In this document: piece after piece, positions 3 through 7,864 of the stretch
How positions within the stretch are numbered: the first letter of the stretch is position 1
Layout: each line of letters starts with the position of its first letter
From: a virus
Taxonomy: Duplodnaviria > Caudoviricetes
DNA: 64,000 nucleotides
IMG/VR virus record: IMGVR_UViG_3300014205_000172
Coordinates: 160,001 to 224,000 of that record
Strand: one strand, 5' to 3'
The notes under the pieces: generated by a model
Database searches by the model: none
Told to the model about the DNA's origin: nothing
Seen by the model: only the letters and a program-made list of their open reading frames with translations
Translations under genes and position numbers: made by a program

Positions 3-410
3 CTGTTTGTTGGTCGGCTCACTGGTGAGTATTCATTGCTCAGCATTGGCGATCCCAATCAAGAAGACGAGTTTGCAAAAAGCCACCCCGGTCGACACCG
101 CTTGGAGATTGACGATGTCGAAGAGTTGATCGATAACTCTTACGTCATGTTCGATTACCTGAAGGCGCTGAAGGTTCTTGTGTGGCTCGAAGATCAAGGT
201 GATAAGGATATCGTCATTCACTGCGAAGCGGGTATCAGCCGTTCTGCAGCAGTGGCAAAGTTCATGGTTGAGCATCTGGGGTATACGCTTAAACCCCATG
301 GTGATCTCAAGACTGACATGGTCGGTTATAACGTGCTGGTCTTCCGTCAATTGCTCATCGCCCAGCTAGACCGAGTAAAGACAAAACTGGTTCAAGTAAA
401 GGAGAAGTAA
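3..410 (+). CDS. Protein tyrosine/dual-specificity phosphatase-like protein (5' truncated by window edge)
   Basis: HCEAGISRS = CX5R P-loop; frame open from position 3. Confidence 0.8.
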   Translation: MFVGRLTGEYSLLSIGDPNQEDEFAKSHPGRHRLEIDDVEELIDNSYVMFDYLKALKVLVWLEDQGDKDIVIHCEAGISRSAAVAKFMVEHLGYTLKPHGDLKTDMVGYNVLVFRQLLIAQLDRVKTKLVQVKEK

Positions 411-1818: not shown

Positions 1819-2172
1819 ATGAGCCGTAATAAAGTTCGTAAACAACAAGCCGTTGAACGCCATAACGCACAGTACGTAATGCATCGCCAACTGGAAGAAT
1901 TGAACGCCAGAAGTGGTTTGCTTTTCGACCCTCAGGTTGGCCGCACTCCAGGTAAGTCCAAACCGGTATCGGAGATGCTGGCCGCTCAGACCGCTGAAGA
2001 CCCAGGTCTGGGACGTGGTCAAACTCGGCACATACTGACCGCCGAAGATATGGGCGGTATCGGACCAGATGACGGTGGCTTACGCCGCGGTGAGTTTGCT
2101 GTTGTATCGGCACTCACCCCTGCCGATAAGGCGGTACCGGCCGAAGTATTTGTAGCCACTCAGCCTGAATAA
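1819..2172 (+). CDS. Hypothetical protein with isolated DnaB-like GGLRRGEF motif
   Basis: AAGGA RBS; GGLRRGEFAVVSAL near C-terminus. Confidence 0.7.
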   Translation: MSRNKVRKQQAVERHNAQYVMHRQLEELNARSGLLFDPQVGRTPGKSKPVSEMLAAQTAEDPGLGRGQTRHILTAEDMGGIGPDDGGLRRGEFAVVSALTPADKAVPAEVFVATQPE

Positions 2173-2272: not shown

Positions 2273-2533
2273 ATGGAAACCATACGGGTCAATCGACATC
2301 GTCTATTAGTTGGGGATAGGTTTGTAATACCCAACGACAACGACCGGTTACTCTACGAGGTGCAGGGTAGCCATCCCGATTCTGGACTGCTAATTAGACG
2401 TATTAAACATGGTTGGTACGGCTACATGCACCTGGAATCTGGAGTGGTCATTGGTAGCGAGAAGGACAGTCCTTTAAAGGAGCTTACGACGATACCCTTA
2501 GTGGTCTTGATGAATGAAATGGACCTTGCGTAA
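2273..2533 (+). CDS. Hypothetical protein
   Basis: GAGG RBS; lies between two hairpins. Confidence 0.6.
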   Translation: METIRVNRHRLLVGDRFVIPNDNDRLLYEVQGSHPDSGLLIRRIKHGWYGYMHLESGVVIGSEKDSPLKELTTIPLVVLMNEMDLA

Positions 2534-2534
2534 A

Positions 2535-2570
2535 GCATACAGGCAGGGCATGTGCCCTGCCTGTATGCCG
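2535..2570. terminator. Stem-loop of GCATA...TATGC family
   Basis: gcatacaggcagggca-tg-tgccctgcctgtatgc; arms nearly identical to 5981-6016. Confidence 0.7.
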
Positions 2571-2595
2571 TATGCGTTAGATCGCTGTAAAAGTC

Positions 2596-2610
2596 TACAG
2601 CAATACATCA
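2596..2610 (+). promoter_or_regulatory. Putative early (virion RNAP) promoter
   Basis: TACAGCAATACATCA; recurrent intergenic motif resembling phiKZ early TATATTAC. Confidence 0.6.
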
Positions 2611-2639
2611 TGGTAATAGAGAATACCCTGGAGGTATCT

Positions 2640-2885
2640 ATGGACAGGTCAAATATAGACAGAAAGAAAGAGTGGGCATCCAGCTTTTATTTGGATATAG
2701 AGTTAGGGCGTGAAACTGTTGATGATCATAGTAACTTCATGGGCGACTATAATTTTTCTGACGTGAAAGATGGTTACATCGTCGACGGCGTATATACCGA
2801 TAAGCCCGATTTTGATCTAATTCGTAAGGAGGACGCTGAGTTTGTAAACGAGTGCCACACTTTATTGAATTACACTCGGGAATAG
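2640..2885 (+). CDS. RKK...YTR microprotein paralog 1
   Basis: GGAGG RBS; IDRKK...NYTRE. Confidence 0.7.
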   Translation: MDRSNIDRKKEWASSFYLDIELGRETVDDHSNFMGDYNFSDVKDGYIVDGVYTDKPDFDLIRKEDAEFVNECHTLLNYTRE

Positions 2886-2890
2886 TATCA

Positions 2891-3133
2891 ATGAATACAA
2901 GCATGGATAGAAAGAAATGGACGGCTATTGCCGGGACATACGAAGATGAAACGGGTAGACAAACCCACTCCTCAGAAAGTAACCTAATGGGGGATTATTC
3001 GTTAGTTACCGGCGCCCAGTGGTACTACGTAGGTGGGATTTATACAACCAAACCAGATAATGACGACAGGCGAAGAGAAGACATCGTGTACGTGAAATCC
3101 AATTGTCAACTAAACGACTACACTCGGGAGTAA
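2891..3133 (+). CDS. RKK...YTR microprotein paralog 2
   Basis: MDRKK...DYTRE; aligns end to end with paralog 1. Confidence 0.7.
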   Translation: MNTSMDRKKWTAIAGTYEDETGRQTHSSESNLMGDYSLVTGAQWYYVGGIYTTKPDNDDRRREDIVYVKSNCQLNDYTRE

Positions 3134-3138
3134 TTCCC

Positions 3139-3366
3139 ATGGCGTACGATAACCATAGAAAGAAAGCCATGCCTGGGGATTGGGCACCTCAATTAAGTGA
3201 CGGCGGGATGAGCGTCGACACAATAAGGGACAGTTATTACAATGACGGTAATCGCATAGAAGGCAATGGTCAGCTTGATCCGGATGTCCTAACCGAACCT
3301 AGAGAAATGGACCACATGAGACCATGCGGTACAGAACCGTTTAAGAGGGCTCATCATGGCAGCTGA
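3139..3366 (+). CDS. RKK microprotein paralog 3
   Basis: GGAG RBS; DNHRKKAM, DGG, DPD. Confidence 0.65.
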   Translation: MAYDNHRKKAMPGDWAPQLSDGGMSVDTIRDSYYNDGNRIEGNGQLDPDVLTEPREMDHMRPCGTEPFKRAHHGS

Positions 3367-3583
3367 CGTATACCGTAAAAAGAACTGCCCAGACACAAAT
3401 AGTTGGTTAGGTAATGACCAAGGCGGTGTTAAAAATATACGCATAACGGTTTGTCATATGGACGATGGTAACAGCCGATTAAGTTGTTTCGGCCGCGATC
3501 CGGAAACAATTAGAGTGCCGTATGATAGAAAATCATGCAGATCTATGCATGACTACCCGGTAGATAAAGAACATGTCGATTGA
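3356..3583 (+). CDS. RKK microprotein paralog 4
   Basis: DVYRKK, QGG, DPE, DY near C-terminus. Confidence 0.65.
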   Translation: MAADVYRKKNCPDTNSWLGNDQGGVKNIRITVCHMDDGNSRLSCFGRDPETIRVPYDRKSCRSMHDYPVDKEHVD

Positions 3584-3821
3584 TCAGCATCGTAAGAAAG
3601 CCATGCGGGGACGGAAGCCTGATGATGAGGGTGGTTATGGCACAATACCTGACGGCATTGGATATAATGACCAATGGTCGTTATCGACAGGCCATCCGGC
3701 TGATCGAACAGACCCAGATTTATTTAAGACCTCCTGGATCTTCGATGCTGAAATCGACAGGAAGGTCCAGGCTGGCAGAGCTCCGGGACATGGTGATTGT
3801 TGTGATTACACCCGGCCTTAA
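3573..3821 (+). CDS. RKK...YTR microprotein paralog 5
   Basis: DQHRKKAM, EGG, DPD, DYTRP. Confidence 0.7.
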   Translation: MSIDQHRKKAMRGRKPDDEGGYGTIPDGIGYNDQWSLSTGHPADRTDPDLFKTSWIFDAEIDRKVQAGRAPGHGDCCDYTRP

Positions 3822-3832
3822 TGGAGTTGAAA

Positions 3833-4039
3833 ATGTTGGACATAACCCGTAAGAAATTTGCCGATCCGCGGGTTTCGTCACCAGACGGCGGCAGCGGCGC
3901 GATCGACAACGATAATGCCGTGTGTCCGTCGCGACCATTCCGGACAGAAGGTCACTTCGTCGATGGTGATCAATGTAGGTTTCATAAGGCCATGCTTGCC
4001 GTACACATAGGCGGCTACAAAGATTTTACAAAGTCGTAA
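3833..4039 (+). CDS. RKK microprotein paralog 6
   Basis: GGAG RBS at 3823; DITRKK, DGG, DFTKS. Confidence 0.65.
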   Translation: MLDITRKKFADPRVSSPDGGSGAIDNDNAVCPSRPFRTEGHFVDGDQCRFHKAMLAVHIGGYKDFTKS

Positions 4040-4086
4040 TACCTAACCTTATTTATCGAATTTAAACAAACCCTGTTGGAGTTAAC

Positions 4087-5193
4087 ATGAGTCTCAATTT
4101 CATTCCAGAACCTGTAAGTCAAACCCTGCTCGACAACATCAAGCGTTGGAACGATCAACTTCCATTGCTGCGAGGCGATAACATCTACGATATTTCACGC
4201 CTGTTCTTCTCCAGCAAAGGCTGGGATGCTCAACAGGCGCACCTCACCGCTGACATCGCTCACGGCAAGACTGGTGGTGAGAACGATCGGCATATCCACA
4301 AAGTCGTTCTGGACGGCATCCTCAAACCTCAAGGTCTGCGTTTCATGCGTACCCTGATGGGTCGGCTCATCATCAACGAGGATGAAATCATCGGTGCCTT
4401 CGTCAATCCAAGCACCAGCGCCACTCAGGCCAAGTACGACGTCATCGGCACCGACGCGTTTGTCAACTATTTCCGCAATACTTTCAAAGAGCTGATCGAT
4501 ACAGGCGTTACGCCGCATCTGCGCCGTCTGACGCTGAGCGACAAAGCTATTACGACGACGATCGAAACGATCCCACCTATCGGCGTGATCAAAAACCAAA
4601 CTCTGTTCTACCCGTACTTTGGCCGTACGCCAGCAGAAGTCTGGGCAGCTTTCGCGAAGTCCAGGGCTAACGTCCTCGTTCTGATTGGCCCTCCGGGTAC
4701 CGGTAAGTCTAACTTCATCTTGCAGATGATGGATGCACGCGGCTGGGATGACAAGATCAGCATGATTGACCGTCAGGATGTTCTGCTGAACCCAGGGCTG
4801 TCCGATTACATCCGCAGCTGTCCGGCAGGATCTGTTGTAATCTGTGAAGATGCCGACCGCCTGCTGATGTCCCGCGATCTGGGTAACGACAACATGTCGG
4901 CCGTGCTTAACGCCGCTGAAGGCATTGTAAGTCGTGATGTGAAGATTATCTTCTCCACTAACCTGGAGTCGCTCTCCGGTACCGACGACGCACTTACACG
5001 CCCAGGTCGTTGCTTCGACGTGCTTCGTTTCGAACTTCTGTCGAAAGAACAGGCTTATGCTGTACGTGACATGATGGAGCTGGAGTCTGTGGACATGGAT
5101 GACAAAACCATGACCCTGGCGAAAGCTTTGAACTATCACGAAATGCACCAAGACCGTATCGTCAAGCGTTCGGGTGTCGGCTTCTCTCAGTAA
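4087..5193 (+). CDS. AAA+ family ATPase
   Basis: Walker A GPPGTGKS, Walker B VICEDAD, STN, arginine finger RPGR. Confidence 0.9.
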   Translation: MSLNFIPEPVSQTLLDNIKRWNDQLPLLRGDNIYDISRLFFSSKGWDAQQAHLTADIAHGKTGGENDRHIHKVVLDGILKPQGLRFMRTLMGRLIINEDEIIGAFVNPSTSATQAKYDVIGTDAFVNYFRNTFKELIDTGVTPHLRRLTLSDKAITTTIETIPPIGVIKNQTLFYPYFGRTPAEVWAAFAKSRANVLVLIGPPGTGKSNFILQMMDARGWDDKISMIDRQDVLLNPGLSDYIRSCPAGSVVICEDADRLLMSRDLGNDNMSAVLNAAEGIVSRDVKIIFSTNLESLSGTDDALTRPGRCFDVLRFELLSKEQAYAVRDMMELESVDMDDKTMTLAKALNYHEMHQDRIVKRSGVGFSQ

Positions 5194-5235
5194 CGATACA
5201 TACAGGGCGGGTGTAATCCCGCCCTATTATTTGAG

Positions 5236-5502
5236 GTGTTTATGACAACTCCAGAACTGGAAACGCTTCGTAAATTACTGACTGGTTTGCTTGAAGCCAA
5301 GTGTGTACAGATTGGGGCTGCAAGCGACACACTTGGCCAGGTGTCTAAACTGAGCGGTATTGCACTTACTCAAATCTCAATCCTCTACCTGGGTGACATG
5401 AATAAGCTGTCTATGTCAACCATTGTCGAGATCGGTCGTTTTACAAACACACGGTTGCGCTATACGGTTGTGGCCGAAGCGGAATCACAAGGGCAGAACT
5501 AA
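5236..5502 (+). CDS. Possible XRE-like helix-turn-helix protein
   Basis: LGQVSKLSGIALTQISIL HTH-like pattern. Confidence 0.5.
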   Translation: MFMTTPELETLRKLLTGLLEAKCVQIGAASDTLGQVSKLSGIALTQISILYLGDMNKLSMSTIVEIGRFTNTRLRYTVVAEAESQGQN

Positions 5503-5972
5503 TGTCATTTATCAATAACCAAACTGGCGCGCCTATCCAAGAGACATCAATCTTGCTGGAGGTCGGCGTGCCTACTGGCATCACCGGTCGGACTTACTTG
5601 CTCAACGATAGTCTGCGTAAGGCTATCAGAGCACTCCAGGGTAAGAAGGTGTATATGGAGATGGGCGTTCCAAAGAACGGCGGCCTATCGCGCCCTGACT
5701 GGGCCAGTACTGTAAACAACGAACGCGTCTGTGGCGAGGCAAGCAACATCCGCTTGATCGAAAGTCGCCAATCACCAGGGTTGGCTGTAATCATCGGCGA
5801 TATCAAACCCCACGGCCCGTTCGGCGTAGTAATGCGCGACACCATCACCGGCGCTGATCAGGCGCATAACCACTTCAGCATTCGCGCTGCATGTCAATTA
5901 CCCGATCCGGAGAACGCTGACATTTTGTCGATCAGGCATCTTTATACTTTCGATTTGATTGCCCGTAAGTAA
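5502..5972 (+). CDS. Prohead protease (T4 gp21/phiKZ gp175-like) homolog, probably inactive
   Basis: GRTY, EMGVP (for E-L-x-H-P), ERVC, IKPHGPFG, FSIR, TFD. Confidence 0.6.
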   Translation: MSFINNQTGAPIQETSILLEVGVPTGITGRTYLLNDSLRKAIRALQGKKVYMEMGVPKNGGLSRPDWASTVNNERVCGEASNIRLIESRQSPGLAVIIGDIKPHGPFGVVMRDTITGADQAHNHFSIRAACQLPDPENADILSIRHLYTFDLIARK

Positions 5973-5980
5973 CATTTCTA

Positions 5981-6016
5981 GCATACAGGCAGGGCGTAAA
6001 TGCCCTGCCTGTATGT
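5981..6016. terminator. Stem-loop of GCATA...TATG family
   Basis: Long inverted repeat, same arms as 2535-2570. Confidence 0.7.
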
Positions 6017-6051
6017 CGTAATAGTGACTTGATACCAAAACCCTATCAAGT

Positions 6052-6730: not shown

Positions 6731-7864
6731 ATGCCCCTGATTATTACCGATAATGACACCAACTACTTGGTGCAGGATATCAACCTCGCTCGTAAGGTTG
6801 AGGCCCTGCCACCCGCTGTTTATAACCTGGTGATGTCCGAAGAAGGCCCTCGGTTGTTTAAAGGCCGTACCAAGTTCGATATTCCAAAAGACCCGCTGGG
6901 TGATCACAACACCATTCGCGATCTGATCATCAGCGACTACAACAGCACAACCTCGCCTGTCGGCGTGATCTTGGTCGGTCTGAAAGGTTCTGGTAAAACC
7001 ATGCTGTCAGAAGATCTCTGCAATCTGGTCATCGACTCCGGCCGCTGCATCCTCAATATCACTACGCCGCTGTCAGGCAGTCTGATCTCCACCATCATCA
7101 ATCTGCTAGGCCCATGCGCCGTAATGTTCGACGAGTTCGGTAAAGTGTATTCCGAAAGCGAAGAACGTAACAGCGTACTGACGTTGTTCAGCGACAGTGA
7201 AAAGCGTAACATCCTGTTCATCGTCACAGCCAACAGCGAACGTGAATTTGTTGACGCCATGCTGAACCGCCCAGGTCGTTTCAAATACCGTATCAACTAC
7301 GACGGTATCAAAGAAGCCACCATCATCGAAGCGTTGGCCAACCCGAAGCACAGCCCTGAACTGGTGGAATACCTTCGCATGTATTCGCAGTACCACGCCA
7401 TCAGCTTCGACATGCTGCTTCTGATGAAGAAGCTGTTGGCCAAGTGCGTAACGCCCGCGGACTTCGTCAACAAGATCGAATTCTACAACCTGCCGGCCAA
7501 AGTCAATGTCCGTTACACCGTTAAGGACGTGACGTACAACAACAGCACCACTGATTATCGCGGATGGTTGGATCAGAGCGAAGAAGGTCTGCTGACCCTG
7601 GAACTGACCGAAAACAAAACTGGTGCCGTGGTCTACAGCCAACCGCTGGTGTGGGCGACGGTTGATAAAGTCAAGCGTGGCATTGTCTGGCAGCTGAAAA
7701 TTGACGAGGGTCTGAAGATCAGCGTCGAACGTGATGTTACTGAGCATGTATTTAAAGTACGTGCTCGCGATGCCACCGGCGGGAACAAACATCACTTCAG
7801 CCATCCGGATGAAGATATCGAGTATAAGAACCCCGGGTATCCGCAATCAGTCAAGCAGTTCTAA
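6731..7864 (+). CDS. AAA+ family ATPase
   Basis: GLKGSGKT, MFDEFGK, TAN, NRPGRF. Confidence 0.9.
   Translation: MPLIITDNDTNYLVQDINLARKVEALPPAVYNLVMSEEGPRLFKGRTKFDIPKDPLGDHNTIRDLIISDYNSTTSPVGVILVGLKGSGKTMLSEDLCNLVIDSGRCILNITTPLSGSLISTIINLLGPCAVMFDEFGKVYSESEERNSVLTLFSDSEKRNILFIVTANSEREFVDAMLNRPGRFKYRINYDGIKEATIIEALANPKHSPELVEYLRMYSQYHAISFDMLLLMKKLLAKCVTPADFVNKIEFYNLPAKVNVRYTVKDVTYNNSTTDYRGWLDQSEEGLLTLELTENKTGAVVYSQPLVWATVDKVKRGIVWQLKIDEGLKISVERDVTEHVFKVRARDATGGNKHHFSHPDEDIEYKNPGYPQSVKQF

What the first reader, a model, noticed from the sequence alone, without database searches (positions are those of the whole stretch)
2596..5193. Six-gene array of hypervariable microproteins with fixed DxxRKK N-ends and D[YF]T[RK] C-ends, next to an AAA+ ATPase
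Seen: six tightly coupled 68-82 aa ORFs. All have RKK within the first 10 residues, preceded by an Asp (IDRKK, MDRKK, DNHRKKAM, DVYRKK, DQHRKKAM, DITRKK). Four end in NYTRE, DYTRE, DYTRP or DFTKS, and copy 4 keeps DY. Copies 3-6 share an x-G-G, and copies 3-5 share D-P-[DE]. The middles are very divergent and rich in D/G/P/C with little hydrophobic core. 3' ends match at DNA level (tacactcggga twice, tacacccgg). The array follows an early-promoter motif and has no obvious terminator before the AAA+ gene. Inference: a constant-ends, variable-middle scaffold under diversifying selection, such as a panel of anti-defence binders, adaptors or substrates of the ATPase, or processed peptides. I do not recognise the family.
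Basis: partly seen in the sequence, partly recalled or inferred. Interest (0 to 1): 0.78.

Follow-up and report, generated by a model that had tools for sequence, protein, structure and literature searches.

The report
RKK-tagged microprotein array beside Bcs1-like ATPase
A giant nucleus-forming phage carries a row of six small, fast-changing, apparently unfolded proteins that all start with the same Arg-Lys-Lys tag. The same kind of row sits in front of, and is sometimes fused to, the same Bcs1-like ATPase in many distant relatives, so the row and the ATPase look like an undescribed two-part system.

Summary
Six translationally coupled genes of 68-82 aa (2640-4039) all carry R-K-K five to seven residues after the start Met. 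In the whole 237-kb genome this occurs in these six genes and only three chance ORFs.

They are one diverged family: c1/c2, c5 and c6 match full length, c3 and c4 match full length, and all share the first ~25 residues. The family lies between a promoter-like motif and a terminator-like hairpin, together with an AAA+ ATPase. That ATPase is the orthologue of phiKZ gp208 and is Bcs1-like by sequence and fold.

New here:
- Eleven arrays from at least six ATPase lineages (down to 45% identity) keep 2-8 RKK genes directly upstream of this ATPase.
- In two lineages the last unit is fused in frame to the ATPase N-terminus.
- Only the tag survives between lineages, and six different Arg codons encode it.
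- The bodies evolve 3.5-9 times faster than the ATPase, but dN/dS stays below 1, so diversifying selection is not shown.
- AlphaFold gives no confident fold.
- Pfam, PHROGs and my literature searches gave no match for the family.

Best reading: tagged clients, or else adaptors, of the ATPase. The function is untested.

This scan has already noted the same family on other DNA (e1-5377144, e1-5377136).

The parts
2528..2575 (+). 23-nt-arm inverted repeat (hairpin) that ends the upstream gene 2273-2533. The same arms recur at 5967-6030.
   Evidence: I5, I11, I16. The same hairpin-then-motif cassette recurs in the genome.
2597..2610 (+). Promoter-like motif ACAGCAATACATCA, 30 nt before the c1 start codon.
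   Evidence: About 10 clear + strand copies of ACAG[CT]AATACAT[CT]A in the genome, each 30-55 nt before an SD and ATG and often after a T-run. The stretch is conserved in relatives. The temporal class was not determined.
2640..2885 (+). c1, RKK microprotein, 81 aa; starts MDRSNIDRKK, ends NYTRE.
   Evidence: 42% identical to c2 (E 6.5e-18). Orthologues in L005, L006 and L012.
2891..3133 (+). c2, RKK microprotein, 80 aa; MDRKK near the start, ends DYTRE. Absent from the L006 and L010 arrays; its body is not alignable at DNA level with the L005 copy.
3139..3366 (+). c3, RKK microprotein, 75 aa (DNHRKKAM). Its end overlaps the c4 start by 11 nt.
   Evidence: hhalign c3-c4 95%.
3356..3583 (+). c4, RKK microprotein, 75 aa (DVYRKK). 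Its end overlaps the c5 start by 11 nt.
   Evidence: 49% identity to the L005 orthologue with saturated dS.
3573..3821 (+). c5, RKK microprotein, 82 aa (DQHRKKAM, ends DYTRP). The most central member of the family.
   Evidence: hhalign to c1/c2 91% and to c6 85%. Present in all five close genomes.
3833..4039 (+). c6, RKK microprotein, 68 aa (MLDITRKK, ends DFTKS). An alternative ATG lies at 3821.
   Evidence: dN/dS 0.04 against L005. Replaced by a c5-like copy in L006 and absent in L012.
4087..5193 (+). Bcs1-like AAA+ ATPase, 368 aa; orthologue of phiKZ gp208.
   Evidence: Pfam AAA 27.8 bits. PHROG 14322, E 1e-100, unknown function. The only PDB sequence hits are Bcs1. The fold of the orthologue P0018 matches Bcs1 and YjoB over both domains. 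Orthology to PHIKZ208.
5204..5225 (+). Terminator-like G+C-rich hairpin with a T-rich tail; probable end of the operon.

Best explanation
The six genes encode members of a lineage-specific family of small (about 63-126 aa), very hydrophilic, probably disordered proteins. What defines the family is an N-terminal handle: Met, 3-9 residues (often D-hydrophobic-x), then invariant R-K-K. The family is expressed from one operon with the phage's Bcs1-like AAA+ ATPase.

I think they are most likely clients of that ATPase. The RKK handle would be the address that the ATPase ring reads at the free N-terminus. The ATPase would then handle them (translocate, load or remodel), and the interchangeable, fast-evolving bodies would do the actual work at the phage-host interface.

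Shown: the family, the tag, the rapid turnover, the conserved linkage to the ATPase, the fusions, and the Bcs1-like nature of the ATPase.

Inferred: co-transcription, binding of the tag by the ATPase, the client rather than adaptor role, and any role against the host.
For: 1. The tag is selected as a peptide. 56 distinct units from 11 arrays all have R-K-K 4-10 residues after the start, and all six Arg codons are used. Between lineages nothing else is invariant.
2. The linkage is conserved. RKK arrays of 2-8 units lie directly upstream of, and on the same strand as, the ATPase orthologue. This holds in the window's clade (5 genomes), L017/L020, L021, L018/L026, L100, L101 and L099, with ATPase identity down to 45%. 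The 72 control loci that hold only AAA-domain relatives have 0-2 such ORFs each. Other neighbours (S80-like gene, second AAA) are not conserved across these lineages.
3. There are fusions. In P0018, P0019 and P0020 (451 aa) and in P0025/L021 (437-438 aa), an RKK unit is in frame with the ATPase N-terminus. These are two different extensions in two lineages. The family HMM ranks the fused N-termini first among non-family sequences (E 0.004 and 0.39).
4. One transcription unit is plausible: a promoter-like motif before c1, coupled or overlapping genes, no terminator-like site until after the ATPase.
5. The bodies look like terminal-tag clients. GRAVY is -1.0 against -0.19 for long ORFs of the genome, and Asp, Arg, Cys, His and Pro are enriched. 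AF2 gives pLDDT 54 for c1 and 29-50 for the fused unit, while the ATPase part of the same model is above 90.
6. Bcs1, the nearest solved relative, is a translocase of a folded client (titles of the PDB entries). Iyer et al. 2021 (PMC7824862) already proposed that jumbo-phage BCS1 orthologues bind and translocate proteins.
7. phiKZ orf208 tolerates a transposon insertion, and its knock-down has no plaque effect (PMC12676376; PMC12571901). That fits an accessory, host-dependent function.
Against: - No direct evidence of binding exists.
- A fusion is more typical of an adaptor or cofactor domain than of a client.
- The tag stays conserved in most fused forms although it is already tethered. It may therefore bind something other than the ATPase.
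- The fused ORF of L020 keeps the internal AAGGAG and ATG of the normal ATPase start. The long form could be a minor product.
- phiKZ, Phabio, L023-L025 and L102 have the ATPase without RKK genes. The ATPase therefore does not need them.
- The tag occurs on no other protein of this genome. If it is an address, it serves this family only.
Confidence: 0.35

Rival explanations
1. Adaptors or specificity subunits. The microproteins dock on the ATPase and their variable bodies recruit different (host) targets to it. In two lineages one adaptor has become a permanent N-terminal domain, as in the N-domains of other AAA+ proteins.
For: In-frame fusions to the ATPase N-terminus in two lineages. Conserved synteny. 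Residues that separate ATPases with RKK arrays from those without lie mostly in the N-terminal domain: F5, S37, D67, F86, L94, Y128. That contrast is confounded by phylogeny.
Against: The only invariant part is a 3-residue basic tag at the far end from the fusion joint. No conserved docking surface is visible in the bodies, and no fold is predicted. Six to eight adaptors for an ATPase that other phages run without any is not parsimonious.
Confidence: 0.2
2. Independent small host-takeover or counter-defence proteins. The RKK tag binds some other common partner (membrane, nucleic acid, ribosome, shell or spindle protein). The ATPase is only a co-expressed neighbour.
For: Position behind a promoter-like motif among many small genes of unknown function. 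Fast evolution and copy gain and loss between genomes whose ATPases are 88-98% identical. The tag is retained even when fused.
Against: Of all the neighbours, only the ATPase is kept next to the arrays across at least six lineages, and two independent fusions exist.
Confidence: 0.2
3. Virion-packaged internal proteins of the T4 IP type. RKK would be a capsid-targeting sequence, and the Bcs1-like ATPase would load the proteins into proheads for injection with the DNA.
For: [quoted passage not shown]
Against: No conserved protease site follows the tag; this is my reading of the alignments against the S/A/G-x-E rule of phiKZ gp175, which I recall from memory. There is no PHROG hit. The operon lies among non-structural genes behind a promoter-like motif shared with other small-gene operons. 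The true prohead protease is about 107 kb away.
Confidence: 0.1
4. Precursor peptides that are cleaved or modified (RiPP-like), with constant leader and follower and a variable core.
For: Constant ends with a variable middle inside the close clade. A short Peptidase_S80 paralogue lies two genes downstream.
Against: No modifying enzyme is nearby. The S80-like gene is missing next to the arrays of L021 and L026. The C-end is not conserved between lineages. At 63-126 aa they are long for such peptides.
Confidence: 0.03
5. Non-functional or decaying ORFs in a fast-evolving spacer.
For: No fold is predicted, there are no database relatives outside the clade, and sequence turnover is extreme.
Against: dN/dS is 0.04-0.41 with open frames in every relative. 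The tag is kept through all six Arg codons. SD sites and coupled starts are kept.
Confidence: 0.02

Closest known systems
T-even phage internal proteins (IPI, IPII, IPIII and relatives) with the capsid targeting sequence
   Same: Small, highly diverse accessory proteins that share only a short N-terminal address, in a polymorphic locus of a large phage (PMC3012670).
   Different: No sequence relation: no PHROG or Pfam hit. No protease site is visible after the tag. There is an obligatory neighbour, a Bcs1-like ATPase to which units can be fused, and T4 has no such ATPase. Packaging into virions is unknown here.
Mitochondrial Bcs1 and B. subtilis YjoB (for the ATPase), and the BCS1 orthologues of jumbo phages noted by Iyer et al. 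2021
   Same: The AAA domain is closest to Bcs1 by sequence (E 2e-9). The two-domain fold matches Bcs1 and YjoB over 333-411 aligned columns. Iyer et al. predicted a protein-translocating role for the phage orthologues.
   Different: No N-terminal membrane anchor and no Pfam BCS1_N hit. TM-scores are only 0.3-0.44. Ring size is unknown. The known client of Bcs1 is one folded protein, not a panel of tagged, disordered microproteins.
Secretion or export substrates that share a short signal read by an ATPase (for example ESX/type VII WXG100 proteins with EccC; PEXEL proteins with the HSP101 translocon)
   Same: Multi-copy, fast-evolving small proteins that share a short linear signal and are encoded next to, or depend on, an ATPase. 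This is an analogy from general knowledge.
   Different: No homology, a different ATPase class, no membrane component identified, and the destination is unknown.
W-motif microprotein array beside a membrane-anchored Bcs1-type ATPase in a 536-kb phage
   Same: The same design: tandem hyper-diverged microproteins with one short shared motif next to a phage Bcs1-like ATPase.
   Different: A different motif (W-x-[DE]-x-x-K-x-[FWY]), the array lies behind rather than before the ATPase, and that ATPase is membrane-anchored. I did not test it.

Membership tests
RKK microprotein family (defined here and in earlier notes of this scan) | R-K-K 4-10 residues after the start Met of a 60-130 aa hydrophilic protein | tested here: met
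   All six window genes and 56 distinct units in 11 arrays.
RKK microprotein family (defined here and in earlier notes of this scan) | Tandem array directly upstream of, and on the same strand as, the gp208-type Bcs1-like ATPase | tested here: met
   Window 2640-5193, and the same layout in relatives.
RKK microprotein family (defined here and in earlier notes of this scan) | Detectable homology among the copies | tested here: met
   hhalign 78-95% along the chain c1/c2-c5-c6 and c3-c4-c5. Caveats: the c3-c5 link covers the N-terminal 24 residues only, c0 matches at the N-terminus only (at most 56%), and c6 fails the leave-one-out HMM test.
T4-type internal proteins with a capsid targeting sequence | Sequence membership in known phage internal-protein families | tested here: not met
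   The five copies scanned (c1, c3-c6) have 0 PHROG families; all six have 0 Pfam families.
T4-type internal proteins with a capsid targeting sequence | Prohead-protease cleavage site at the end of the tag | tested here: not met
   No conserved x-x-E or S/A/G-x-E position after RKK in the alignments. The protease rule is recalled from memory.
T4-type internal proteins with a capsid targeting sequence | Presence in the virion and injection with the DNA | not testable with these tools
   Needs virion proteomics.
Bcs1-like AAA ATPases (for gene 4087-5193) | Classical AAA domain with P-loop, closest to Bcs1 | tested here: met
   GPPGTGKS in the translation. Pfam AAA over its cut-off. All five PDB sequence hits are Bcs1.
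Bcs1-like AAA ATPases (for gene 4087-5193) | Bcs1-type N-terminal (middle) domain before the AAA domain | tested here: inconclusive
   Foldseek aligns 333-411 columns of the P0018 model to full-length Bcs1 and YjoB, E down to 5.6e-12. However, TM is only 0.3-0.44 and Pfam BCS1_N did not hit.
Bcs1-like AAA ATPases (for gene 4087-5193) | N-terminal transmembrane anchor | tested here: not met
   I see no hydrophobic stretch in the first 90 residues of the translation.
Bcs1-like AAA ATPases (for gene 4087-5193) | Heptameric ring that translocates a folded client | not testable with these tools
   Needs cryo-EM and biochemistry.
RiPP precursor peptides | Modifying enzyme or leader-recognition protein encoded alongside | tested here: not met
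   The neighbours are AAA ATPases, an HTH-like protein, an S80-like protein and unknowns. Only the ATPase is conserved next to the arrays.
Chimalliviridae (genome context) | Chimallin, PicA/Imp1 and non-virion RNA polymerase genes | tested here: met
   Pfam Chimallin_Phikzvirus 27.3 bits against a cut-off of 27, over 564 of 627 positions. phiKZ gp69 gives E 1e-14 and gp55 E 9e-55 by tblastn on the genome.

The most novel reading that the evidence does not exclude
RKK is a linear transport address, and the Bcs1-like ATPase is the motor that reads it. Together they would form an energy-driven protein translocation system that moves a changing set of small effectors across a boundary the phage builds or meets: the early-infection vesicle membrane, the chimallin shell, the host inner membrane or the prohead. 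This would be the first signal-plus-motor pair of its kind in a nucleus-forming phage.
Probability: 0.1. Interest if true: 0.92.

Novelty: categorically new. Interest (0 to 1): 0.72.

Why it matters
Nucleus-forming phages sort proteins between compartments, yet no linear sorting signal and no ATP-driven motor for protein traffic is known in them. This module offers a three-residue invariant tag on dozens of otherwise unrelated microproteins, tied genetically to a Bcs1-type ATPase, a class whose model member translocates a folded protein.

The idea is directly testable: put the tag on GFP, mutate it, and delete the ATPase. If the tag turns out to be an address, it would also be a portable tool. 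If instead the microproteins are adaptors or counter-defence factors, the arrays are a ready-made library of fast-evolving binders whose targets would show what limits jumbo phages in nature.

The module also gives a first functional lead for phiKZ gp208, a widespread gene that is dispensable in the laboratory.

Tried and rejected
- Co-folding of the ATPase with c5, both as alignments (collected): no verdict, score 0.00. This is not evidence either way.
- AF2 of c1 with a 32-row alignment: pLDDT 54.5, so no fold search was run on it.
- ESM Atlas feature search with c5: only unnamed clusters at 0.88-0.91, within the chance range.
- Megablast of the region against GenBank phages: no match.
- Family HMMs against the Phabio and phiKZ/KTN4 ATPase neighbourhoods and the whole genome: no further members. 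The family is absent there, and the six copies are the only ones in this genome.
- Gene-wide and regional dN/dS: no value above 1. Site models are not feasible with 3-5 saturated sequences.
- Residues separating ATPases with RKK arrays from those without: nine positions, mostly in the N-domain, only one acidic (D67). The contrast is confounded by phylogeny, so it is not used as evidence for a docking site.
- ATPase tree: the backbone is unresolved once 17 rows are used. I do not claim a single origin of the arrays. L102 (no array) groups with L026 and L100 (support 83/76), which suggests a loss.
- Promoter class: the chimallin gene has only a partial copy of the motif about 230 nt upstream. 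I could not use it to call the motif 'early'.
- Literature searches for gp208, BCS1 in jumbo phages, and import signals: nothing on this family.
Full report
**Context.** The window is bases 160001-224000 of a 237-kb IMG/VR virus record. The genome is related to the phiKZ group:
- The 651-aa ORF just before the non-virion RNA polymerase beta gene reaches the Pfam chimallin cut-off (27.3 against 27 bits, 564 of 627 positions).
- phiKZ gp69 (PicA/Imp1) finds a homologue at E 1e-14 and gp55 finds one at E 9e-55.
- The AAA+ gene of the finding is 47.5% identical to Pseudomonas phage Phabio and 38% to phiKZ-type phages. Its phiKZ counterpart is PHIKZ208.

**The observation.** All six ORFs exist as described:
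- They are 68-82 aa long and lie on the + strand. They are separated by 5 nt (c1/c2, c2/c3) or overlap by 11 nt (c3/c4, c4/c5).
- Most have a recognisable Shine-Dalgarno sequence.
- Every one has R-K-K five to seven residues after its Met. In the whole genome, in six frames, only nine ORFs of 45 aa or more have this, and six are these genes.
- The C-terminal [DN][YF]T[RK]x motif is present in c1, c2, c5 and c6.
- In c4 the orthologues read GD[FT]RP followed by VDKEHVD. c4 therefore looks like the same end plus an extension that carries the overlapping start of c5.
- The shared 3' DNA (tacactcggga) is real, but its GGGA[GA] also lies where the ribosome-binding site of the next gene would be.

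**Are they one family?**
- c1 and c2 are clear paralogues (42% identity, E 6.5e-18).
- With orthologues from relatives, profile-profile comparison gives c1/c2-c5 91% (78 columns), c5-c6 85% (67 columns), c3-c4 95% (72 columns) and c3-c5 78% over the first 24 residues only.
- Leave-one-out HMMs against all about 3,200 genome ORFs recover c1, c2 and c5 significantly. c3 and c4 are marginal, and c6 is not recovered.
- I read this as one family with a shared N-terminal module of about 25 residues (Met..D..RKK...G..T) and bodies that have drifted nearly out of reach.
- No further copy exists elsewhere in the genome.

**Evolution among close relatives.** Five related genomes were found: L005 by ATPase pattern, and L006-L012 through a profile search of 1.84 billion proteins and contig look-ups. 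That profile search returned only 13 proteins, all but one of them from close relatives.
- The arrays differ in content:

| Genome | Array content |
|---|---|
| Window | c1-c6 |
| L005 | c0-c6 |
| L006 | c0, c1, c3, c4, c5 and a second c5-like copy |
| L010/L011 | c0, c1, c3-c6 |
| L012 | c0-c5 |

- Orthologues are 45-73% identical. The ATPase is 90% identical and the upstream gene 2273-2533 is 96%.
- dN is 3.5-9 times that of the ATPase. Even so, dN/dS is 0.15-0.41 gene-wide and does not exceed about 0.5 in any part.
- c2 and c4 also have saturated dS, and the c2 body has no DNA match to its L005 counterpart. That fits replacement by diverged alleles.
- Fast turnover is therefore shown. Diversifying selection is not.

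**The wider picture.** ATPase orthologues at 45-63% identity were fetched with their flanks.
- Arrays of 2-8 small genes that begin with x(3-9)-RKK lie directly upstream of the ATPase in L017/L020 (63%), L101 (59%), L021 (51%), L018/L026 (46-47%), L100 (45%) and L099 (45%).
- Controls: the 72 loci that hold only AAA-domain relatives have 0-2 such ORFs each, and minus strands have almost none.
- Phabio, L023-L025, L102 and phiKZ have the ATPase but no RKK genes.
- In all, there are 56 distinct units. R-K-K is invariant and is written with all six Arg codons, so the peptide is what is selected. Asp stands at position -3 in 31 of the 56.
- Between lineages, only the tag is invariant. A Gly about 13 residues later and a central DP[DE] recur in about 70% of units.
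- Other neighbours of the window's array (S80-like gene, second AAA) are shared only with L017/L020.
- The ATPase tree does not resolve the backbone, so I do not claim a single origin.

**Fusions.**
- In P0018 and P0019 (451 aa, starting MK[HN]DPLRKK), in P0020 (tag decayed to LRTK), and in P0025/L021 (437-438 aa, [MV]IHDI[NG]RKK), an RKK unit is in frame with the ATPase.
- The two extensions differ in length and sequence and belong to different lineages.
- The family HMM places the fused N-termini first among non-family sequences (E 0.004 and 0.39).
- In L020 the normal ATPase start is still preceded by AAGGAG inside the long ORF. Both long and short forms may therefore be made.

**The ATPase.**
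- It has a P-loop (GPPGTGKS) and passes the Pfam AAA cut-off. It belongs to PHROG 14322, of unknown function.
- Its only PDB sequence matches are Bcs1 (E 2e-9).
- An AF2 model of the fused orthologue P0018 is confident from residue about 88 onward (pLDDT about 90) and poor in the RKK part (29-50).
- Foldseek ranks Bcs1 structures first (E 5.6e-12, 333-411 aligned columns), followed by B. subtilis YjoB.
- It has no membrane anchor, and there is no BCS1_N Pfam hit.
- Iyer et al. 2021 noted BCS1 orthologues in jumbo phages and proposed that they translocate proteins packaged into the head (PMC7824862).
- In phiKZ, orf208 tolerates a transposon insertion (PMC12676376). It is listed as a non-core gene whose knock-down has no plaque effect (PMC12571901).

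**The operon.**
- A hairpin (2528-2575) ends the upstream gene.
- The motif ACAGCAATACATCA (2597-2610) follows. It recurs about ten times on the + strand of the genome, 30-55 nt before start codons and often after the same type of hairpin and a T-run.
- Its layout resembles the phiKZ early promoter as described in words in PMC8244752 (T-rich element plus extended -10). I could not confirm the temporal class.
- No terminator-like site lies on the + strand before 5204-5225, just after the ATPase.

**Nature of the proteins.**
- GRAVY is -1.0 against -0.19 for long ORFs of the genome. Asp is enriched 2.0x, Cys 2.2x, Arg 1.65x, His 1.5x and Pro 1.36x, and aliphatic residues are halved.
- AF2 gives pLDDT 54.5 for c1 with 32 sequences.
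- Cys and His positions are not conserved in the alignments.
- They are probably disordered on their own, or they fold only on a partner.

**Interpretation.** The invariant terminal tag, the many unrelated bodies, the obligatory ATPase neighbour and the fusions together point to a two-part system.
- I favour clients whose N-terminal tag is read by the Bcs1-like ring (0.35).
- Next come adaptors (0.2), which the fusions favour.
- Independent effectors whose tag binds another common partner also get 0.2.
- A T4-internal-protein-like capsid address gets 0.1.
- RiPP-like processing and junk are unlikely.

None of these has been tested biochemically.

**Earlier notes of this scan.** I looked these up after I had found the arrays and fusions myself.
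- e1-5377144 and e1-5377136 describe RKK arrays on other genomes, with the same fusion and linkage. My results agree with them.
- e1-5362134 describes a different-motif microprotein array beside another phage Bcs1-like ATPase. If it holds, the design is more general.
- e1-5656078 calls this genome nucleus-forming. I checked this through the chimallin, PicA and RNA polymerase matches above.

Noticed in passing
window 5502-5972: A 156-aa protein passes the Pfam Peptidase_S80 cut-off (35.7 bits, profile positions 57-174 of 229). It is a short paralogue of the phiKZ-type prohead protease. The full-length protease lies at genome 55559-56152 (196 bits), and a third faint match lies at genome 198194-198340. 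This paralogue is conserved after the ATPase in the close clade and in L017/L020 only.
   Followed up: partly
window 2528-2575 and 5967-6030; genome-wide: Near-identical palindromic hairpins (16-nt perfect shared arms) are followed after a T-run by the motif ACAG[CT]AATACAT[CT]A. This is a repeated terminator-promoter cassette found before about ten + strand operons (for example window 7876, 33186 and 55381).
   Followed up: partly
window 6731-7864: A second AAA ATPase (377 aa, PHROG 2376 'ATPase', Pfam AAA 28.8 bits) lies 1.5 kb downstream of the first. It is conserved at 69% identity in L017/L020.
   Followed up: no
L003 2025-3360 (Phabio PHABIO_302-306): Phabio, whose ATPase lacks RKK genes, has its own run of five 82-92 aa genes before an RNA ligase and the ATPase. 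Three share an EAR[VS]EN motif near residue 20, and two share an M[TS]IMAL[IL]EKQ start. This may be an analogous array with different motifs.
   Followed up: no
window 36-410: A small DSPc-like (dual-specificity phosphatase) protein with a Cys-x5-R type loop (HCEAGISRS). It scores below the Pfam cut-off (28.4 against 33.5 bits). It is conserved in all relatives upstream of the array region.
   Followed up: no
window 1819-2172 versus L005 3378-3866: The gene two places upstream of the array is 117 aa in the window but 162 aa in the 98%-ATPase relative, through internal insertions. The neighbouring gene 1503-1802 is only 46% identical. Mosaic turnover is therefore not confined to the RKK array.
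   Followed up: no
genome 94026-95981 (L104 3027-4982): The chimallin homologue is very divergent. phiKZ gp54 does not find it by tblastn (best E 0.79 elsewhere), and Pfam passes by only 0.3 bits.
   Followed up: partly
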